In this document: in pieces, positions 2,295 through 53,302 of the stretch
Layout: every line of letters begins with the position of its first letter
Position numbering within the stretch: the first letter of the stretch is position 1
DNA from: a virus
Taxonomy: Duplodnaviria > Caudoviricetes
DNA: 64,000 bases
Reading direction: 5' to 3' (one strand)
Virus record (IMG/VR): IMGVR_UViG_2868569063_000004
Span: 58,875-122,874 of that record
Program-made: the position numbers and the translations under genes
The notes under the pieces: model-generated
Told to the model about the DNA's origin: nothing
Seen by the model: the letters and a program-made list of their open reading frames with translations, nothing else
The model's database searches: none

Positions 2295-3506
2295 TTAGAA
2301 GTGATCCTTTTCGAAAAGATCAGCGAAGAGCTTACTGGTTTCTGATCGCACATCTTCTCCAAGATAGATACATCCAAATTTTTCATTTCCTTTAAACTCA
2401 TTACACATTTTAATGAGAGGATTATTAATCGTTTTACTTAACAGGGATTGTTTATAATCACCTGCAAGATAAATTTTACTGTTCTCTCCAAGTCGTGTAC
2501 CAATAAGTTTAATTTGACTTTCTGATAAATCTTCTGCTTCATCACAGAGAATAACAGTGTCATTATAAGTAGTACCTTTCATAAAGAACGGTACATTAGT
2601 ATCTAACACACCAGATACTTTCAAACTCTGTAATTCGAACTCTCCGCCATTAAGAGACTGAGAGAGTGGTTCAAAGAATCTCCCAACTTTATCTTCCATG
2701 TCGCCTGGAAGGAATCCGATCTCTTTACCTTCACCAGAAACTTCTCGTACACCTAAGATTTTACTATTTCTGCCTTTCTCCTTTACATTGTATAGTGCCA
2801 TTTGCATAGAAAGGTAAGTTTTTCCGCTGCCGTAACCACCGAGAATAGCCGCAATAGTGATATCTGGGTTATTCAAAATATCTAATGCACAACGTTGTAA
2901 GGAGTTTTTTGCCTTAATAAATTTGGAAGATGGCAGTTTTAGTGCCACAAACCCCTGACCATCATAGCGCATTTCTTTAGTAGTGCCATCGTCAGTATTT
3001 TCAATAATGAGATACTCATTGGTGTACCAAGTTGAATAATCTAGTTCAGCCATAGCCTGATTGATAGCATTAGTATCACCTTTAATTACTTTATATCCTT
3101 TATATATCTCGTTAGTAGGCTCTACGATTCCGTACACTGGCAGGTTAAAGACTTTCCTTGCAATATTTTTGCAGCACAAATCATCTGAAATGAATTCAAT
3201 ATCCTGAACTTTAGATAGAGTATAAGCACTAAAAACAATCCTGTTGTCTGGTCTAACTGGATCCAATTCAAAATTTAACAGTTGTTTTTCCATTTCAAAA
3301 TTATAATTTATTACGGAATACTGATCATGATTCTGATCTAAAAGACGAGCTATATGTCTAGCTTTGTATTTGATATCCTCATCTTTTCGAGAGGATGTTT
3401 TGATATTTTCGATTTCTCTAAGAGTTTCATCAGAGATGAAGAATCTTTCTTTGAATGCTGCCTCCTGGAGATTCAGGAGAGCATTGGTATCATAAAATTT
3501 AGTAAT
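2295..3506 (-). CDS. phoH: PIN-PhoH protein (PIN RNase + PhoH ATPase), probable ATT start
   Basis: Frame stays open 71 codons upstream of the tracked ATG and encodes KFYDTNALL (PIN); AAGGAG lies 9 nt before ATT 3506; GGYGSGKT, IGFLPG, DEAEDL, GDYKQ, RSETS PhoH motifs. Confidence 0.88.
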   Translation of the reverse strand: MTKFYDTNALLNLQEAAFKERFFISDETLREIENIKTSSRKDEDIKYKARHIARLLDQNHDQYSVINYNFEMEKQLLNFELDPVRPDNRIVFSAYTLSKVQDIEFISDDLCCKNIARKVFNLPVYGIVEPTNEIYKGYKVIKGDTNAINQAMAELDYSTWYTNEYLIIENTDDGTTKEMRYDGQGFVALKLPSSKFIKAKNSLQRCALDILNNPDITIAAILGGYGSGKTYLSMQMALYNVKEKGRNSKILGVREVSGEGKEIGFLPGDMEDKVGRFFEPLSQSLNGGEFELQSLKVSGVLDTNVPFFMKGTTYNDTVILCDEAEDLSESQIKLIGTRLGENSKIYLAGDYKQSLLSKTINNPLIKMCNEFKGNEKFGCIYLGEDVRSETSKLFADLFEKDHF

Positions 3507-3520
3507 AGTTAGGCACTCCT

Positions 3521-3700
3521 TTACAGTGATTTTGCTTTATCAGCATAGTAGTCCTCAATATATCTGTTGTTGCCTGAGGTCTTGTAATATCCTACATGAT
3601 ATCCTTTTTTGTTAATGTAACCTTTGTGCGTGTTTCTAATGATACCTTTGTCCATTAGTTTTTCAATTTCTTTCTTAGAAATCGGTTTAATAATAATCAA
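3521..3700 (-). CDS. Small hypothetical protein (~56-59 aa, not in ORF track)
   Basis: Open frame IKPISKKEIEKLMDKG...AKSL filling the gap between genes; TTG or ATT start. Confidence 0.6.
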   Translation of the reverse strand: MIIIKPISKKEIEKLMDKGIIRNTHKGYINKKGYHVGYYKTSGNNRYIEDYYADKAKSL

Positions 3701-47384: not shown

Positions 47385-48020
47385 ATGAGATATGTTTTAG
47401 AAAGTGAAAAATATCCTGGAAATTATTTGGTGTTTAAACATGGAAGTCCTCCTCATGTGGTGGATTTAAAATCTGCTCAGAAGTTTGACAATGTACCGAA
47501 AGCTTTAAACAGGATATCAACAATTCCTAAAAATTTAAGCATATACGCCCCTTGGAAAGTAACATCAGTTGATGAGAGAGTTGGTTTTGTACAGCAGAAT
47601 AAATCTCTTGTAGAGATTGGTGATTATAAAAAGAAAATAGATGACAGCATATTGCCTATTAAAGAAATATTAGGTAATAGAAAACCTTTAGAAAAACAGC
47701 TAAAGGAACTGGAGCTTATATCTCAGGATCTTGATCACTATATAGAATTTAATAAACTGAATGTTACTTCTGGATATTGGGCCTATAAAATAAAAAAAGC
47801 AATTAGAGAGAAACGAAGAAGTATAAAAGAAGATCTATATTATATAGATTATCTTCAGACAGCTTCATTACCTCAAATTGTAAACGGGGAAGGGAGGCCT
47901 AATTTAGATAATCAAAAATATCGAATTAGATCAGATATTGGACAAGAGTTTTTTAATCAGAAGTACATATCTAAAGAAATAGCAGAGAAGATTTGCAAAG
48001 AAATAGAGGAGATTACATAA
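47385..48020 (+). CDS. Hypothetical coiled-coil protein
   Basis: DLDHYIEF...RR.IK motif; GAGG RBS. Confidence 0.78.
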   Translation: MRYVLESEKYPGNYLVFKHGSPPHVVDLKSAQKFDNVPKALNRISTIPKNLSIYAPWKVTSVDERVGFVQQNKSLVEIGDYKKKIDDSILPIKEILGNRKPLEKQLKELELISQDLDHYIEFNKLNVTSGYWAYKIKKAIREKRRSIKEDLYYIDYLQTASLPQIVNGEGRPNLDNQKYRIRSDIGQEFFNQKYISKEIAEKICKEIEEIT

Positions 48021-48925
48021 TGAATGAATTAATTATGCTGGTAGGTTTACCTGCTTCCGGTAAAAGTACATGGGCTAAAGAGTATTCAGAAACTCATCCT
48101 GATTATATAGTGCACTCTTCTGATAAACTCAGAGAAGAAATGTATGGAGATAATTATGATGACGCAGACAACAGTAAAGTATTTGAAGAACTGCATCGTA
48201 GAATACTGGAAGATTTGAAAATGCATTCGGTTATTTATGATGCTACTAATTTGGTAAAGAAAAGAAGAGTGCATTTTTTAAAAGGAGTTCCTAAACATGT
48301 TTATAAAACATGTATTATGTTTTTGAAAACGTATGAAAAATGTTTAAAGGATAACTCAAAAAGGGAAAATTCAGTTCCAGACGAAGTGATTACAAGAATG
48401 AGGAAAGTATTTTCTCCACCAATGTACCATGAAGGGTTCAATGAAATTAGAGTTGTACAAGATGATCATAAAGATATAAAAGAATTAATAGATATGGCTC
48501 GTGACTTCGATCAAGAGAATCCACATCATTCTCTTACTCTTTATGAACATCTGAAAAAGGTTTCAGAAGGAGTACCTAGAGAAGAAAAAAATTTATGGGT
48601 GGCGGCCTGTCTCCATGATATTGGAAAGCTTTTCACTAAATCAAGAATTAATGGAAAAGGTGAAGAGGATGATTACTGTCACTATTATCAACATCATTGT
48701 GTTGGAGCTTATGAATGTTTAACATGTTTTGATTTTTCCGGTGCACTTACAGGAAAAGATATATATGATGCTTTTTATACAGCAAATTTGATTTATTATC
48801 ATATGCATCCCTATTTATCATGGTCGCAATCAAACAAGGCAAAGAATAAAGATAAGTATTTAATTGGAAAACAGATGTTTTCAGATGTGATGTTATTACA
48901 TGAAGCAGATGTTAAAGGGCATTGA
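48020..48925 (+). CDS. Polynucleotide kinase (AAA_33) fused to HD domain
   Basis: GLPASGKST, SSD..R, DATN; HH...EH, LHDIGK, HM, D. Confidence 0.88.
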   Translation: MNELIMLVGLPASGKSTWAKEYSETHPDYIVHSSDKLREEMYGDNYDDADNSKVFEELHRRILEDLKMHSVIYDATNLVKKRRVHFLKGVPKHVYKTCIMFLKTYEKCLKDNSKRENSVPDEVITRMRKVFSPPMYHEGFNEIRVVQDDHKDIKELIDMARDFDQENPHHSLTLYEHLKKVSEGVPREEKNLWVAACLHDIGKLFTKSRINGKGEEDDYCHYYQHHCVGAYECLTCFDFSGALTGKDIYDAFYTANLIYYHMHPYLSWSQSNKAKNKDKYLIGKQMFSDVMLLHEADVKGH

Positions 48926-48965
48926 TTTTCGATATAAACAATGATATAAAACAGGAGAATAAAAA

Positions 48966-50066
48966 ATGAGAATTATTAAGGTAGGAAACACATTTAGAAC
49001 TTACGACGATTCATTAGAAACTTTCGACAAGCTTCCGGCTCAGAATTATGTCGTGAGGTTTCAAAAGAATTCTGGTTTCTTTTTAGAAAAATATGCAGAC
49101 ATAGAAATCAAAGAAAAAACCTACGGAGTACATATGAGTAAGGTTGAAAAAGTTCTTAAGGCTTTTCCAAAAGCAGAAAAGAACCTTGGCGTTATCCTGT
49201 CAGGCAATAAAGGAATCGGCAAATCATTGTTTGCAAAGACATTGGCTGTGGAAGCAACAAAAGTTGGTTTACCAGTTATCATTGTAGACACGTATATTCC
49301 TGGAATTGCAAGTTTCATAGAAGAAATTGAACAGGAAGTAATGATACTGTTTGATGAATTTGATAAAACATTTGGCAGTATTAAAGCTGCTGATGGCATG
49401 GCAGATCCTCAAACAGAAATGCTTACATTGTTTGATGGATTGTCTCAAGGGAAGAAAATGTTTGTGATTACTTGTAATGACCTCAACTCGTTAAATAGTT
49501 ATTTAGTAAACAGACCTGGAAGATTCCACTATCATTTTAGATTTGAGTATCCGTCAGATGCTGAAATTACAGAGTACTTAGAAGATAAGTTAGATAAACA
49601 GTATTACAGTGAAATTGAAAAAGTAATTTCTTTCGCTCACAAAGTAGATTTAAACTATGACTGCCTGAGAGCAATTGCATTCGAGTTGAATTTTGGAGAG
49701 CCTTTTGAGATAGCAATCAAAGATTTGAACATTATTAATCTGAATAGTGTTATATATGAAGTCATTTTACATCTTGAAGATGGTTCTGAAGCAACTACAA
49801 AATTGACTATTGATTTCTTTGATAAGAGCGCAACGATTGAACCAGAATTCTGCTTTAAAGGAACCTATGTAGATGCTTCTTGTAAAGTTCTTGATTGTGA
49901 GTTTGATCATAAAAAAGGCATCATTTATGTATCTGGAAATGATATTAAATTAGAAAGTGATAATTACTACAATGATGAAGAAGATAAAAAGATCATCAAA
50001 ACAATGAAGCCAGCATATATGACTTTTGTAAGAGCAAAAAGTAGAGAATTGCATTATGCAGTATAA
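48966..50066 (+). CDS. AAA+ ATPase
   Basis: GNKGIGKS, LFDEFDK, NRPGR. Confidence 0.9.
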   Translation: MRIIKVGNTFRTYDDSLETFDKLPAQNYVVRFQKNSGFFLEKYADIEIKEKTYGVHMSKVEKVLKAFPKAEKNLGVILSGNKGIGKSLFAKTLAVEATKVGLPVIIVDTYIPGIASFIEEIEQEVMILFDEFDKTFGSIKAADGMADPQTEMLTLFDGLSQGKKMFVITCNDLNSLNSYLVNRPGRFHYHFRFEYPSDAEITEYLEDKLDKQYYSEIEKVISFAHKVDLNYDCLRAIAFELNFGEPFEIAIKDLNIINLNSVIYEVILHLEDGSEATTKLTIDFFDKSATIEPEFCFKGTYVDASCKVLDCEFDHKKGIIYVSGNDIKLESDNYYNDEEDKKIIKTMKPAYMTFVRAKSRELHYAV

Positions 50067-50103
50067 ATAATCTGTATATAGATACCTTCATAGGTATCTA
50101 TAG

Positions 50104-50175
50104 AGGGTAGTGGCCAAGCGGTAAGGCACAGCACTTTGACTGCTGCATTCATGGGTTCGAATCCCATCTACCCCG
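50104..50175 (+). tRNA. tRNA-Gln(TTG)
   Basis: Cloverleaf; CAGCA-CTTTGAC-TGCTG; GGTTCGAATCC. Confidence 0.9.
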
Positions 50176-50580
50176 TAGTTCTAAGTTAGCTCTGAAGGCC
50201 AAAGAGGTAACCGATAGAGCTAAGGTATACCTACTTATGTTCATGGCGGACATAGATAAAACTTAAGTGAAAATTTGGATGGTTTAATAACTGGAACCTG
50301 TTCAAAAAAGGGAACACAGTACATTGGTAGCAATGGTTTGGATGTACGAAACATTTATATAGATGTGCTTTGTGCTAATGAGGAAGTGGAGTGGAGAGGA
50401 CTGTACAAGTATGGTACGTGTAGTTAGTATGAAGCAAAAAGTAATTGCGTTAGCGAGGGTGATGGAAAGAGAGAAGGTCTGAGAATGATGACGATCATTC
50501 ATGTAGCTGACATGATTACAAATCAATCATTATAGTTGTTACGTTTTTATATGTGGGTGTTTTCAAAGTTCACCCACTAT

Positions 50581-50654
50581 GGAAACTTAGCTCAGTTGGT
50601 TAGAGCAACCGGCTCATAACCGGTCGGTCCTGGGTTCGAATCCCAGAGTTTCCA
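50581..50654 (+). tRNA. tRNA with CAT anticodon, probably Ile2 rather than initiator Met
   Basis: ACCGG-CTCATAA-CCGGT; paired 1:72; lacks the initiator GGG/CCC anticodon stem. Confidence 0.85.
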
Positions 50655-50878
50655 TTTCTCCTGACGAAGGAGTGACTTTTGAGAGCTCTAATTTTCAATA
50701 GTAAAGAGCCGTTGCTGATTTGGTAGTGAGAATCAGATGGCGCTGGAAAGACAGATAGTTTTTGAGATGTTTTGTAATGAGACAAACATTCAGCTTTAGA
50801 GAAAATGTAGGGAATTGAGCTGATCAAAGAACACATAATCCTGTTGTGACTGCAGCACGACAGGTCATGCATGAAAAG

Positions 50879-50951
50879 TGATAAGTAGCTCAGTTGGGAG
50901 AAAGAGCGCACTACAAAAGTGAGGTCGGTGGTTCGAGTCCACTCTTATCAC
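50879..50951 (+). ncRNA. tRNA-like element with truncated anticodon arm
   Basis: TGATAAG/CTTATCA acceptor, GCTC/GAGC D stem, GGTGG-TTCGAGT-CCACT T arm; anticodon arm only CAC-TACAAAA-GTG. Confidence 0.7.
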
Positions 50952-50992
50952 AGGCAATTAAATTAAAGTTTAAAATTCAGGAGGTATTTATC

Positions 50993-51631
50993 ATGACAAC
51001 AGAAAAAATGAATGTACACAAAGCATTAGCGGAACTGAAGATCTTAGATGATCGTATTGTAAAAGCAATTAACAGTGTAGAAGCTTGTATTTCAAATAAG
51101 CATTCTAACACAAAAGTCAAAGGTGTAGATATCAAAGTTTACACAGGGGTTATGAAATCTTCTTATGATAAAGCAACTGATTTAATCAAGAGAAGAGAAG
51201 CTATTAAAAGAGCTGTAGTTCTTTCAAATGCAGTAACTAAAGTCACTGTTGCTGATAAAGAGTATACAGTAGCTGAAGCTATTGAAATGAAAAATCATGG
51301 AATGGACTTCAAGAAACTTTTAAAACAGAAAATTAAAAAACAGTATGATGCTGCTATGGCTCAGATCATAACTGAGAATGGTAAATTGGAAGATAAAGCT
51401 GAAAATTATGTTGTAGGGCTCTATGGTAGCAAAGAAGGTAAAACCTCTACTGAAGAGTTTACAAAAACTAGAGAAGCCTATATAGAAGCTCAGACAATGG
51501 AACTTGTTGATCCAATTGGTGTTCTTAAAGAAATGGAGGATTTAGAAACAGAAATTGCAGAGTTCACTGCTGAAGTAGATGCGGCACTTTCAGTAAGTAA
51601 TTCTCTGACAGAAATAGAAATTACATACTAA
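50993..51631 (+). CDS. Coiled-coil protein, DIP1984/DUF6847-like
   Basis: ATG 50993 after AGGAGG; M.V..AL.ELK.L..RI...TVAEAI...VD.ALS.SN..T.I. Confidence 0.75.
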   Translation: MTTEKMNVHKALAELKILDDRIVKAINSVEACISNKHSNTKVKGVDIKVYTGVMKSSYDKATDLIKRREAIKRAVVLSNAVTKVTVADKEYTVAEAIEMKNHGMDFKKLLKQKIKKQYDAAMAQIITENGKLEDKAENYVVGLYGSKEGKTSTEEFTKTREAYIEAQTMELVDPIGVLKEMEDLETEIAEFTAEVDAALSVSNSLTEIEITY

Positions 51632-51635
51632 GATA

Positions 51636-52015
51636 TATTCACTGCTTATCGAAAACTTTAAACTATAATCTATATGTCTTTTTAGCTGGGTTAGACATAT
51701 ATAAAACAATAAAGAAACCACAGCATTACTTATACAGTAGATAATAGTATAAAATACAAAATGGATTAGGATTACGTGGTCGTATAGGACCTGTAAGCTT
51801 AATATATTATATTATTGGATGAGGCAGATAGCCATAGTACTGTAAAGTTCAAAGATTAAAACTCAAATCTTAAAATTCAAAATTCAAAGTTTATCCCAGT
51901 TTAAAGATTAAAGAATAAAGCATAAAGAATAAAGATTTATCAAATCCTTGGTAAAAGTTTATGAGCATGATTATACTTGGCTCTTAGTTTGTACAAGGCT
52001 GGTAAGTAGTGAATA
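51636..52015 (+). ncRNA. Candidate ~380-nt structured RNA with heptamer repeats
   Basis: 15-bp closing stem with two G.U pairs; 12 YAAA-initiated 7-mers at 51843-51936; no ORF. Confidence 0.68.
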
Positions 52016-52073
52016 AGTAAATATAATAGTCGCTTTCATTATTAACAATTGGCAGTTGAACTGCCAGTTGTAC

Positions 52074-52155
52074 CCACCCATGGTGGAATTGGCAGACACG
52101 TTAGATTTAGGTTCTAATGCTTAATAGCGTGAGAGTTCGAGTCTCTCTGGGTGGA
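52074..52155 (+). tRNA. tRNA-Leu(TAG)
   Basis: CCACCCA/TGGGTGG; TTAGA-TTTAGGT-TCTAA; long variable arm. Confidence 0.92.
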
Positions 52156-52179
52156 TTAATAAATAGAAAGGAGTAAAAA

Positions 52180-52779
52180 ATGTTTCAAGTAGGAGATATA
52201 GTACAAGTAATAATAGTGCCTAAAAAATATAAACAATATGATATTGCAGGTGCTACAGGCGTTGTAAAAACAGTTTATTCTAACAATATAAGAATACATA
52301 TCTCTAGTTATTACAATGAAGAATCAGAAGAAGGAGATTTTTATTTTAAAGAAAATGAGCTAAATAATTTTACAAGAAAGGAAAATGATATGTCAATTAT
52401 AGAACTTTGGGAGAAAAGAAGTATTGAAAAGATTGATAAGGAAGCTGAAATTAAATTAATGGAATTGCTTGCAGAAGATGAATATACTCATGATTTAATT
52501 TTACACATGAATGATCTAAAAGATGCCGGGTTTAAAGTTGAAATACCAAATAATATTTATGATATGACTTCTGATTATACCAGAGGAATGAGAACTATTA
52601 CTTTAAGTTCAGCAGAAGAGAAAAAAGTTGAAATTAAAAAAGTAGCAGAAGAGATTGGTGTCTTATTAGAGATGTGTAAAGGAGACGTTGTTAAAGAAAT
52701 GGAGATTCTTTGTAGCTATAGAGTTGTAGAATATCCATTCGGGAGAATGACTGTTGGAGGTAGTACTTGTGGAAAATAA
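52180..52779 (+). CDS. Hypothetical protein with N-terminal KOW/SH3-like domain
   Basis: MFQVGDIVQV; possible internal start at MSIIELW. Confidence 0.75.
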   Translation: MFQVGDIVQVIIVPKKYKQYDIAGATGVVKTVYSNNIRIHISSYYNEESEEGDFYFKENELNNFTRKENDMSIIELWEKRSIEKIDKEAEIKLMELLAEDEYTHDLILHMNDLKDAGFKVEIPNNIYDMTSDYTRGMRTITLSSAEEKKVEIKKVAEEIGVLLEMCKGDVVKEMEILCSYRVVEYPFGRMTVGGSTCGK

Positions 52780-53302
52780 AAAGAAAATTTTGATTGTTAT
52801 TGATGTTCAGAATGATTTTGTGACAGGTTCGCTAGGTACACCGGAAGCTCAGGCAGTTGTACCGAATATAGTGAAAAAAGTGGAAGAATATAGATCAAGA
52901 GATGATGTGATTATTTTTACAACTGATACTCATTACGATGATTATTTGGAAACACCAGAAGGCAAAAAACTTCCAGTGTCACATTGTATTGTAGGAACTT
53001 CTGGCTATGAAATTATTCCAGAATTAAATGTTGAACTTTCAACAATGGAAAAGATTTATCCTAAAAATACTTTTGGATATAGATGGAATATAAGCCATTG
53101 GATATGTTGTTATGATGTTGAAATTATTGGTGTATGCACAGATATCTGTGTAGTAACTAATGCATTAGTATTAAAAACACATTATCCGGATATAGAAATT
53201 ACAGTTGATGCGTCATGCTGTGCCGGGACTTCACCGGAGAAGCATAAAGCAGCTTTAGAAGTGATGAAAAGTTGCCAGATTAATGTGATAGGAGAGAAAT
53301 AA
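52769..53302 (+). CDS. pncA: Nicotinamidase (isochorismatase family)
   Basis: VIDVQNDF, DTH, HC..GT.G, K, GVCTDICV. Confidence 0.85.
   Translation: MENKKKILIVIDVQNDFVTGSLGTPEAQAVVPNIVKKVEEYRSRDDVIIFTTDTHYDDYLETPEGKKLPVSHCIVGTSGYEIIPELNVELSTMEKIYPKNTFGYRWNISHWICCYDVEIIGVCTDICVVTNALVLKTHYPDIEITVDASCCAGTSPEKHKAALEVMKSCQINVIGEK

What the first reader, a model, noticed from the sequence alone, without database searches (positions are those of the whole stretch)
50993..52015. Coiled-coil protein gene followed by a closed ~380-nt RNA displaying twelve 7-nt repeats: candidate RNP system
Seen: 5 nt after the stop, TATTCACTGCTTATC pairs with GGTAAGTAGTGAATA (15 bp, two G.U, implying RNA-level pairing). 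Inside are two arrays: TAAAGTT CAAAGAT TAAAACT CAAATCT TAAAATT CAAAATT CAAAGTT and TAAAGAT TAAAGAA TAAAGCA TAAAGAA TAAAGAT, bracketed by AGGATT/AATCCT. The unit is flanked by tRNA elements. Inference: an oligomeric protein binds one heptamer per subunit on its cognate RNA, giving a type III TA-like, sponge or scaffold RNP that I cannot match to a described system.
Basis: partly seen in the sequence, partly recalled or inferred. Interest (0 to 1): 0.8.

Follow-up and report, generated by a model that had tools for sequence, protein, structure and literature searches.

The report
Knotted heptad-repeat phage RNA with partner gene
Right behind a small helical-protein gene in this gut phage's tRNA cluster lies a real, conserved, doubly knotted non-coding RNA of about 380 bases carrying twelve 7-base units; the same gene-plus-RNA pair occurs in hundreds of phages including model phage T5, only its first 86 bases are catalogued (RAGATH-27), and its function is unknown.

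Summary
Window 51636-52015 (+) is a structured RNA closed by a 16-bp long-range stem, with two in-phase heptamer arrays of 7 and 5 units.

Its 5' 88 nt score above threshold for Rfam RAGATH-27, an orphan motif. The whole RNA is far larger. It has P1, a 5' H-type pseudoknot, a variable insert, the heptad track, P2/P3, and a second pseudoknot between the joining strand after P1 (J1) and the P3 loop.

All these helices are kept through fully different sequences in 23 loci of 16 or more lineages: gut Clostridia phages, T5-like, rV5-like, Vibrio, Pseudomonas, Bacillus, Lactococcus, C. difficile and jumbo phages. P1 has 77 G.U against 2 A.C pairs, so the fold is on the gene's strand.

The RNA always follows the same 212-aa gene (phrog_1491, mislabelled "tail fiber"). 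That protein has a confident helical fold whose best match is the unknown-function protein 3kdq.

I read the pair as an RNA-protein module of phage tRNA and RNA-repair islands. Binding is inferred, not shown. "One subunit per heptamer" is untested, and the family's acidity weakens it. The type III toxin-antitoxin reading is rejected.

This scan already found the same RNA on other DNA. New here: tRNAs nested inside one homologue, terminators or tRNAs defining the 3' end, and a speculative match of the units to U-rich anticodon loops.

The parts
50993..51631 (+). Partner gene, 212 aa. It is a helical protein of family phrog_1491; the 'tail fiber' label is propagated annotation.
   Evidence: ORF. 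phrog_1491 at E 6e-52. No Pfam, NCBIfam or PADLOC family. AF2 model with pLDDT 95.8. Best PDB fold match is 3kdq.
51636..51651 (+). P1 5' arm (UAUUCACUGCUUAUCG), ending in the conserved CG followed by AAAA.
   Evidence: Across 22 RNAs P1 has 248 Watson-Crick, 77 G.U and 2 A.C pairs.
51638..51725 (+). Stretch matched by Rfam RAGATH-27 (RF03100). It covers the 5' domain only.
   Evidence: 91.3 bits against a gathering score of 76.1.
51664..51670 (+). J1 segment UAUAAUC, the 5' strand of the long-range pseudoknot with the P3 loop.
   Evidence: The pairing sits at the same offset (about 12 nt after P1) but has a different sequence in each lineage.
51671..51725 (+). 5' H-type pseudoknot. Helix a is 51671-51679 with 51693-51701. 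It crosses helix b, about 51684-51690 with 51718-51725, which is the Rfam hairpin.
   Evidence: An equivalent crossing pair of helices is found at the same offsets in T5, Vibrio, rV5-like, RAY and gut lineages.
51726..51839 (+). Variable insert. It is lineage-specific, nearly absent in Dulem virus 39, and holds two tRNAs in locus L018.
   Evidence: Alignment. tRNA-Ile and tRNA-Gln lie inside the L018 RNA.
51843..51891 (+). Heptad array 1: seven YAAANNU units in exact phase.
51902..51936 (+). Heptad array 2: five UAAAGNN units in exact phase.
51946..51998 (+). 3' domain. P2 is 51946-51950 CCUUG with 51994-51998 CAAGG. It encloses hairpin P3 (51963-51966 with 51980-51983), whose loop segment 51969-51975 GAUUAUA pairs with 51664-51670.
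   Evidence: P2 shows 0 broken pairs in 21 sequences, and 4 of its 5 pairs have double compensatory changes.
52000..52015 (+). P1 3' arm (UGGUAAGUAGUGAAUA), preceded by the near-invariant GGC.
50878..50952 (+). Upstream flanking tRNA-like gene. ARAGORN calls anticodon 'aca'; the Rfam tRNA score is weak at 41 bits.
52074..52155 (+). Downstream flanking tRNA-Leu(tag). It probably sets the 3' processing point of the transcript.
   Evidence: In other lineages a tRNA or an intrinsic terminator follows P1'.

Best explanation
Window 51636-52015 encodes a genuine sense-strand structured non-coding RNA. It is the full-length form of what Rfam lists as the 86-nt RAGATH-27 motif. Its ends pair (P1). A 5' H-type pseudoknot and a 3' P2/P3 domain are tied together by a second pseudoknot between J1 and the P3 loop. 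This compact core holds out a large loop containing a lineage-variable insert and a track of about twelve 7-nt A-rich units that I infer to be single-stranded. The RNA is made as the 3' part of the transcript of the upstream gene. Its 3' end is set by a terminator or by processing of the next tRNA. It is inherited as a fixed two-part module with that 212-aa helical protein inside phage tRNA and RNA-repair islands. The most likely working model is an RNA-protein particle in which the periodic track is a multivalent binding platform, read every 7 nt much as HutP reads UAG repeats, acting on phage or host tRNA biology. Shown here: the RNA structure, its strand, its conservation and its linkage to the gene. 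Inferred: protein-RNA binding, the role of the track, and the tRNA-related function.
For: Structure: the P1 stem is present in all 22 RNAs that were scored, 13-22 bp wherever it runs ungapped, and its sequence differs between lineages. An RNA's own arms pair at 11.8 of 13 positions against 7.6 of 13 for arms taken from different RNAs. P2 has no broken pair in 21 sequences. The J1 x P3-loop pseudoknot and the 5' H-type pseudoknot keep their positions while their sequences are fully replaced.
Strand: P1 has 77 G.U against 2 A.C pairs. A + strand intrinsic terminator lies 2-47 nt after P1' in 9-10 lineages, and a tRNA gene follows directly in at least 6 others.
Linkage: all 37 IMG/VR loci found by an RNA-only DNA pattern have the protein gene ending a few nt upstream. 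All 23 loci found through the protein have the RNA. The 381-nt T5 version is at least 89% conserved in 440 T5-like records and is almost never annotated.
Track: 7-nt periodicity has z > 2.5 in 17 of 21 RNAs, and AAAG is enriched in 16 of 21.
Context: tRNA genes flank or neighbour the unit in the window and in most of the loci examined. A Pnkp-like kinase/HD protein lies upstream in the window, RtcB downstream in Dulem virus 39, and a peptidyl-tRNA hydrolase nearby in XaC1.
Against: No experiment and no usable RNA-seq shows the transcript or its ends. No fold or docking of protein with RNA could be run. The protein family is mildly acidic (median pI 5.7) and has no known RNA-binding domain. Gene adjacency alone would also fit a cis-acting 3' element or simple co-transcription. 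In three lineages (BCP8-2, Xoo-sp15, REC1) the units are spaced 8-15 nt apart rather than 7, so a strict one-subunit-per-heptamer register is not universal.
Confidence: 0.6

Rival explanations
1. The RNA works mainly by base pairing, and the protein is only a helper or a co-transcribed neighbour. In this reading the 7-nt units, which are the size of an anticodon loop, pair with U-rich anticodon loops of tRNAs. NAAAG pairs with C32-U33-U34-U35-N36 of tRNA-Gln(UUG), Lys(UUU) or Glu(UUC). UUAAG pairs with tRNA-Leu(UAA). The RNA would hold, shield or present these tRNAs, for example against anticodon nucleases or for repair.
For: UCAAAG is the exact complement of positions 32-37 of the phage tRNA-Gln(ttg) loop CUUUGA. 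That loop is encoded in the window, Dulem virus 39, BCP8-2 and L019, and UCAAAG occurs 2, 2, 4 and 1 times in their arrays. No other local tRNA gave more than a single hexamer hit there. Vibrio phages use UUAAG-type units instead. In all three, tRNA-Leu(taa), loop CUUAAAA, sits directly upstream of the partner gene. Both Y variants of YAAAG can pair with CUUUG, by C-G or by U.G. The RNA always lies in tRNA or RNA-repair islands. L018 carries a tRNA-Gln inside the RNA.
Against: The test has little power. A/U-rich hexamers are expected in A/U-rich arrays, each lineage counts as roughly one observation, and registers were chosen after looking. Many units fit no natural loop, for example UUCAACA and GUUAACG in 4MG. 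pVp-1 has no exact 6-mer hit, and 4MG none for its local tRNAs. Sequestering tRNAs by the anticodon would also hinder translation.
Confidence: 0.15
2. The element is cis-acting, with no free-standing product: a 3' UTR or processing cassette that stabilises or regulates the upstream mRNA, or directs maturation of the polycistronic tRNA transcript. P1 could, for example, be an RNase III site.
For: P1 starts only 1-63 nt after the stop codon. The element is flanked by tRNAs, or in L018 contains them. Long end-to-end stems are classic processing sites, by established knowledge of rRNA operons and of T7/T4 RNase III sites.
Against: Two pseudoknots, three further helices and a periodic track, kept over 300-480 nt from Firmicute phages to T5, go far beyond what a processing or stability signal needs. 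P1 is often shorter than a typical RNase III substrate, at 13-16 bp.
Confidence: 0.12
3. It is a DNA-level element: an inverted repeat with iteron-like 7-bp repeats, serving as an origin, a packaging site or a site for a DNA-binding protein.
For: Inverted repeat plus direct repeats is the textbook look of an origin or iteron region. T5 records annotate putative promoters at the 3' edge.
Against: 77 G.U against 2 A.C pairs in P1 make the pairing strand-specific. Pseudoknotted helices covary. Terminators follow on the + strand. The 5' part matches an Rfam RNA covariance model.
Confidence: 0.03
4. It is a type III toxin-antitoxin-like pair, or a catalytic RNA of a known class acting on tRNA (RNase P-like or tmRNA-like).
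For: For the TA reading: repeats next to a small protein gene. For the catalytic reading: about 380 nt, closed by P1, two pseudoknots, a small protein partner and a location among tRNAs, which loosely recalls RNase P RNA or tmRNA topology.
Against: The protein has no ToxN/AbiEii-like or defence family hit. Units are 7 nt and lie downstream of the gene. No RNase P, tmRNA, GOLLD or ROOL match was found at Rfam E <= 10 in the window, nor at E <= 1 in the T5 and BCP8-2 versions. ARAGORN finds no tmRNA. The RNA has no T-loop.
Confidence: 0.05

Closest known systems
RAGATH-27 RNA motif (Rfam RF03100)
   Same: The window's 51638-51725 matches the model end to end at 91.3 bits against a gathering score of 76.1. 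So does Dulem virus 39, at 77.2 bits. The strand and position, directly after the partner gene, are also the same.
   Different: The Rfam model has 86 positions with a single 7-bp hairpin and no assigned function. The RNA described here is 290-485 nt, and the model covers neither P1, P2/P3, the two pseudoknots nor the heptad track. The T5 and Bacillus versions are not recognised by the model at all. A full-text search for 'RAGATH-27' found no paper, and the 2017 survey paper I checked does not mention RAGATH in its text. I recall from memory that the motif comes from the Breaker-lab surveys.
GOLLD and ROOL large ornate RNAs of phages and prophages
   Same: These are large, elaborately folded, function-unknown RNAs that sit next to tRNA genes in phages. 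That location is from my knowledge and from the papers listed.
   Different: There is no Rfam match to either. This RNA is smaller, has a periodic 7-nt track, and has a dedicated adjacent protein gene.
HutP and TRAP: ring proteins that read periodic short motifs on single-stranded RNA
   Same: The geometry is alike. From my own knowledge, HutP reads UAG triplets spaced by 4 nt, which is a 7-nt period, in two separated sets. Here there are two sets of 7-nt units, 7 and 5 of them.
   Different: The partner protein is a helical bundle unrelated to HutP or TRAP. The motif is NAAAG or UUAAG. Binding is not shown. This is an analogy of mechanism only.
3kdq, the Corynebacterium diphtheriae protein of unknown function
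   Same: It is the best fold match by two methods: Foldseek prob 1.0 with E 0.024, and VIA-align Z 9.6 with 151 of 152 residues aligned.
   Different: Identity is only 11-15% and rmsd is 8.6 A. No sequence-profile link was found. Helical folds give middling Z scores by chance. 3kdq has no known function either.
Type III toxin-antitoxin systems (ToxIN)
   Same: A tandem RNA repeat array lies adjacent to a protein gene in a phage or defence context.
   Different: In ToxIN the repeats are about 36 nt and lie upstream of an endoribonuclease toxin that processes them. Here the units are 7 nt, sit inside a folded RNA downstream of the gene, and the protein has no nuclease family hit.

Membership tests
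RAGATH-27 (Rfam RF03100) | Covariance-model score at or above the curated gathering score of 76.1 bits, over the full model | tested here: met
   91.3 bits over model positions 1-86 at window 51638-51725 on the + strand.
RAGATH-27 (Rfam RF03100) | Conserved 46-nt leader followed by a hairpin of about 7 bp | tested here: met
   The alignment to the consensus shows the leader nearly identical and the hairpin present, with one non-canonical pair.
Type III toxin-antitoxin (ToxIN/CptIN/TenpIN) | A ToxN-type endoribonuclease toxin | tested here: not met
   No Pfam, NCBIfam or PADLOC hit. The predicted fold is a helical bundle.
Type III toxin-antitoxin (ToxIN/CptIN/TenpIN) | Tandem RNA repeats of about 34-36 nt upstream of the toxin gene, separated from it by a terminator | tested here: not met
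   The units are 7 nt and lie downstream of the gene, inside a 380-nt folded RNA.
DIP1984-like proteins (PDB 3kdq) | Sequence-profile similarity to the family | tested here: inconclusive
   3kdq is not found by phmmer or by the A1 profile at E <= 1.
DIP1984-like proteins (PDB 3kdq) | Shared fold | tested here: inconclusive
   3kdq is the top hit by Foldseek (E 0.024, prob 1.0) and by VIA-align (Z 9.6, rmsd 8.6 A, 151 aligned). Helical folds reach such Z scores by chance.
RNase P RNA | Match to the Rfam RNase P models (conserved regions CR-I to CR-V, P4 pseudoknot) | tested here: not met
   No RNase P hit at E <= 10 in window 50000-52400 or 51600-52080, nor at E <= 1 in the T5 and BCP8-2 versions.
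tmRNA | tRNA-like domain with a T-arm, plus a tag reading frame | tested here: not met
   ARAGORN finds no tmRNA, and Rfam gives no hit.
GOLLD / ROOL | Match to the Rfam models | tested here: not met
   No hit at gathering score or at E <= 10.
HutP/TRAP-type periodic RNA readers (a works-like comparison only) | An oligomeric ring protein that contacts one short motif per subunit | not testable with these tools

The most novel reading that the evidence does not exclude
The module is a new class of phage ribonucleoprotein that acts on tRNAs. The knotted core positions a track of anticodon-loop-sized 7-nt units. These base-pair with U-rich anticodon loops: Gln-UUG, Lys-UUU and Glu-UUC through NAAAG, and Leu-UAA through UUAAG. 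The particle would shield or hold these tRNAs for repair against host anticodon nucleases. That would explain why the module always travels with phage tRNA and RNA-repair genes.
Probability: 0.1. Interest if true: 0.95.

Novelty: new variant of a known kind. Interest (0 to 1): 0.78.

Why it matters
A 300-480-nt RNA with two pseudoknots and a dedicated protein partner, conserved from gut Clostridia phages to Bacillus, Lactococcus, Vibrio, Pseudomonas and jumbo phages and to the model phage T5, has gone unannotated. In the T5 st0 record AY692264, for example, the partner gene is replaced by an ORF called on the opposite strand. Elaborate conserved RNAs of this size have usually turned out to be ribozymes, scaffolds or RNP cores. 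Because T5 infects E. coli K-12, the function can be tested directly by deletion, pull-down and structure work. The module's constant association with phage tRNA, RNA-repair and NAD-restoring genes suggests a role in the contest between phage translation supply and host tRNA-targeting defences.

Tried and rejected
- **Expression:** no RNA holder is listed among the public runs. When the contigs of four runs labelled RNA? were laid on the window, short low-depth contigs fell inside the RNA at 51657-51862, 51749-51957, 51786-51951 and 51696-52099. Only one 170-nt contig fell in the protein gene. The runs may be DNA, and contigs cannot show expression, so I do not use this as evidence.
- **Literature:** a search for 'RAGATH-27' gave 0 papers. 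The 2017 survey text has no 'RAGATH', and no supplements are held. Searches on T5 stable RNA and T5 transcriptomes found nothing on this locus. The phiR2-01 proteogenomic paper does not mention the homologue g074.
- **Known RNA classes:** there was no hit to RNase P, tmRNA, GOLLD, ROOL or Y RNA models.
- **Host similarity:** blastn of the T5 RNA against all complete E. coli genomes gave no match, so there is no detectable similarity to a host sequence.
- **AGGATT/AATCCT bracket:** rejected, because it is not conserved and AATCCT belongs to P2.
- **Cas9 REC Pfam hit:** E 8e-4, below the family cut-off and seen in 1 of 63 family members, so I treat it as noise.
- **Single-sequence AF2 model:** poor, with pLDDT 65, and discarded.
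- **Distant-homologue locus search:** The search for related loci with alignment A1 failed because no stretch was conserved enough.
- **First pseudoknot control:** the generic test (longest complementary run with G.U allowed, own against foreign partners) did not discriminate in these A/U-rich RNAs, 7.36 against 7.27. The position-resolved Watson-Crick analysis did.
- **Anticodon-loop complementarity:** suggestive but statistically weak. I keep it only as a rival and as the novel case.
- **Protein Atlas search:** returned only unnamed clusters.

Full report
**What is in the window.** The window is the 3' half of a 122,874-base IMG/VR virus record. This part of it is a phage tRNA island. It holds tRNA-Gln, tRNA-Met, an odd tRNA-like gene and tRNA-Leu. 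A polynucleotide-kinase/HD protein and an AAA ATPase lie upstream, and an isochorismatase-family protein lies downstream.

The gene at 50993-51631 encodes 212 residues. Four bases after its stop codon, 51636-51651 pairs with 52000-52015.

Seven heptamers start every 7 nt from 51843 and five from 51902. Tandem Repeats Finder and autocorrelation confirm period 7, with z = 6.5. The exception is the AGGATT/AATCCT "bracket", which is present in the sequence but is not a conserved pair.

**It is partly catalogued.** Rfam RAGATH-27 (RF03100) matches 51638-51725 at 91.3 bits, above its gathering score of 76.1. It is a single copy in the record. That model has 86 positions and one hairpin and carries no assigned function. 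I found no paper that discusses it.

**The real RNA is much larger and widely conserved.** A DNA pattern taken only from the RNA found 37 IMG/VR loci. Every one has the partner gene ending a few bases upstream. Going the other way, tblastn finds the protein in 736 GenBank phage records, and its family has 2,236 clusters at 50% identity.

I examined loci from these sources:
- Dulem virus 39;
- Bacillus phages BCP8-2 and Xoo-sp15;
- T5, a T5-like 'Campylobacter' record, and Salmonella phage 41;
- phiCD211;
- the jumbo phages RsoM2USA, XaC1 and RAY;
- Vibrio phages Luma, pVp-1 and JSF12;
- Pseudomonas REC1;
- 4MG, KNP2 and NINP13076;
- Lactococcus AM3;
- two Clostridia MAG contigs and several IMG/VR lineages.

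All 23 have an unannotated 290-485-nt stretch with the same design behind the gene. The T5 version is at least 89% identical in 440 records and is almost never annotated. In the T5 st0 record an ORF was called on the opposite strand instead of the partner gene. Rfam does not recognise the T5 or Bacillus versions.

**Architecture and covariation.**
- **P1.** It is 13-22 bp wherever it runs ungapped; in five lineages, where it appears bulged or its boundary is uncertain, only 6-9 ungapped bp were scored. It always ends ...CG|AAA on the 5' side and GGC|UG... on the 3' side, and its sequence is otherwise different in each lineage. An RNA's own arms pair at 11.8 of the 13 junction-proximal positions, against 7.6 for arms taken from different RNAs. 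Across 22 RNAs P1 contains 248 Watson-Crick, 77 G.U and only 2 A.C pairs, which fixes the fold on the gene's strand.
- **P2.** CCYNG pairs with CNRGG. No pair is broken in 21 sequences, and four of the five pairs show changes on both sides.
- **Second pseudoknot.** P2 encloses hairpin P3. A segment of the P3 loop pairs with J1, the joining strand after P1, at a point about 12 nt after P1. The window has UAUAAUC/GAUUAUA, Dulem virus 39 has UACAAUC/GAUUGUA, T5 has AUCUUA/UAAGAU and 4MG has AUCUUG/CAAGAU. REC1 has UCACGCA/UGCGUGA, XaC1 has AAUUGCA/UGCAAUU and phiCD211 has UAUAAGUU/AACUUAUA. All sit at the same offsets.
- **5' pseudoknot.** Two crossing helices follow J1 at conserved offsets, again with unrelated sequences between lineages. 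One of them is the Rfam hairpin.
- **Large loop.** Between the two domains lie a lineage-specific insert and the repeat track.

**The 3' end.** In 9-10 lineages a canonical + strand intrinsic terminator lies 2-47 nt after P1'. In at least six others, this window included, a tRNA gene follows. This fits a transcript that runs through the gene and the RNA and ends by termination or by tRNA processing. In locus L018, tRNA-Ile and tRNA-Gln lie inside the RNA, between the 5' domain and the track. There the RNA is probably cut into two pieces held together by P1 and the long-range pseudoknot, so the insert need not be continuous.

**The track.** Seven-nt periodicity has z > 2.5 in 17 of 21 RNAs, and AAAG is enriched in 16 of 21. 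Units are NAAAG in most lineages and UUAAG-like in the three Vibrio phages. In BCP8-2, Xoo-sp15 and REC1 the same UCAAAG units are spaced 8-15 nt apart. No covarying partner strand for the track was found, so I treat it as single-stranded. That is an inference.

**The protein.** It has no Pfam, NCBIfam, PADLOC or PDB-sequence relative. phrog_1491 carries a "tail fiber" label. The gene nevertheless sits in early, tRNA-containing regions, while the true T5-type tail fibres are encoded elsewhere, so I regard the label as propagated annotation.

With a 63-sequence alignment, AlphaFold2 gives a confident model with pLDDT 95.8. It is a helical bundle with a small sheet formed by the two termini. The best structural match by two methods is 3kdq, a C. 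diphtheriae protein of unknown function.

The family is mildly acidic, with median pI 5.7. It does keep several conserved basic and aromatic positions: K16, R21, R67, K72, K100 and Y163.

**Interpretation.** Firmly supported: a real sense-strand, doubly pseudoknotted RNA, inherited as a module with this gene. Binding of the protein to the RNA is the most economical reading of the invariant adjacency, but it is inferred. The protein's acidity and the irregular spacing in some lineages count against a strict one-subunit-per-heptamer model.

A second idea arose here. NAAAG is complementary to C32-U35 plus N36 of U-rich anticodon loops. UCAAAG is the exact complement of the phage tRNA-Gln loop encoded in four of these loci. 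The Vibrio UUAAG units match tRNA-Leu(UAA), whose gene sits directly upstream of the partner gene in all three Vibrio phages. The statistics are weak and the registers were chosen after looking, so I keep it as a low-probability rival.

The type III TA reading, the known catalytic RNA classes and a DNA-level element are each contradicted by specific tests.

**Relation to earlier work of this scan.** The same RNA was already found and followed up on other DNA, with the same verdict: a real, knotted, heptad-repeat RNA with a partner gene, conserved to T5, with RAGATH-27 covering only the first 86 bases. I reached these points independently before reading those notes and re-tested them here.

Noticed in passing
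window 50878-50952: A tRNA-like gene directly upstream of the partner gene. ARAGORN calls anticodon 'aca', the loop is CUACAAA, and the Rfam tRNA score is only 41 bits. It may not be a normal decoding tRNA.
   Followed up: partly
window 50176-50579 and 50656-50877: Two ORF-less spacers between tRNA genes with no Rfam match. Short contigs of runs labelled RNA? lie on them at 50204-50385 and 50668-50883.
   Followed up: no
window 47993-50066 and 52754-53302: The neighbours fit an RNA-repair and NAD-restoring island. They are a kinase (AAA_33) plus HD protein resembling polynucleotide kinase, an AAA ATPase (phrog_2376), and an isochorismatase/nicotinamidase-type protein.
   Followed up: no
L018 3269-3437 (IMGVR_UViG_3300028242_000213): tRNA-Ile(gat) and tRNA-Gln(ttg) are nested inside the homologous RNA (3143-3627), between its 5' domain and the heptad track. 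This implies a two-piece RNA after tRNA processing.
   Followed up: partly
L012 1011-1647 and L038 (IMGVR_UViG_2857949459_000001): In this near-identical phage variant the partner gene matches in two frames, residues 1-33 and 32-212, so it has an apparent frameshift. The RNA's variable insert also carries a deletion.
   Followed up: no
window 52047-52071: A strong hairpin, CAAUUGGCAGUU-GAA-CUGCCAGUUG, lies between the RNA and tRNA-Leu with no U tract after it. Variant L006 has a different hairpin sequence at the same place.
   Followed up: no
L074 844-1641 (T5 st0 record AY692264, T5p083): This reference T5 annotation calls an ORF on the opposite strand across the partner gene and leaves the RNA region unannotated apart from putative promoters. 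The gene-plus-RNA module has therefore been overlooked in T5.
   Followed up: partly
L058 2955-2985, and L065/L070 about 2160-2200: In Bacillus and rV5-like phages an extra hairpin lies between the stop codon and P1, for example CCCUCCCUCUAAGGAGGG in BCP8-2. The RNA there starts 35-63 nt after the gene instead of 1-20 nt.
   Followed up: no
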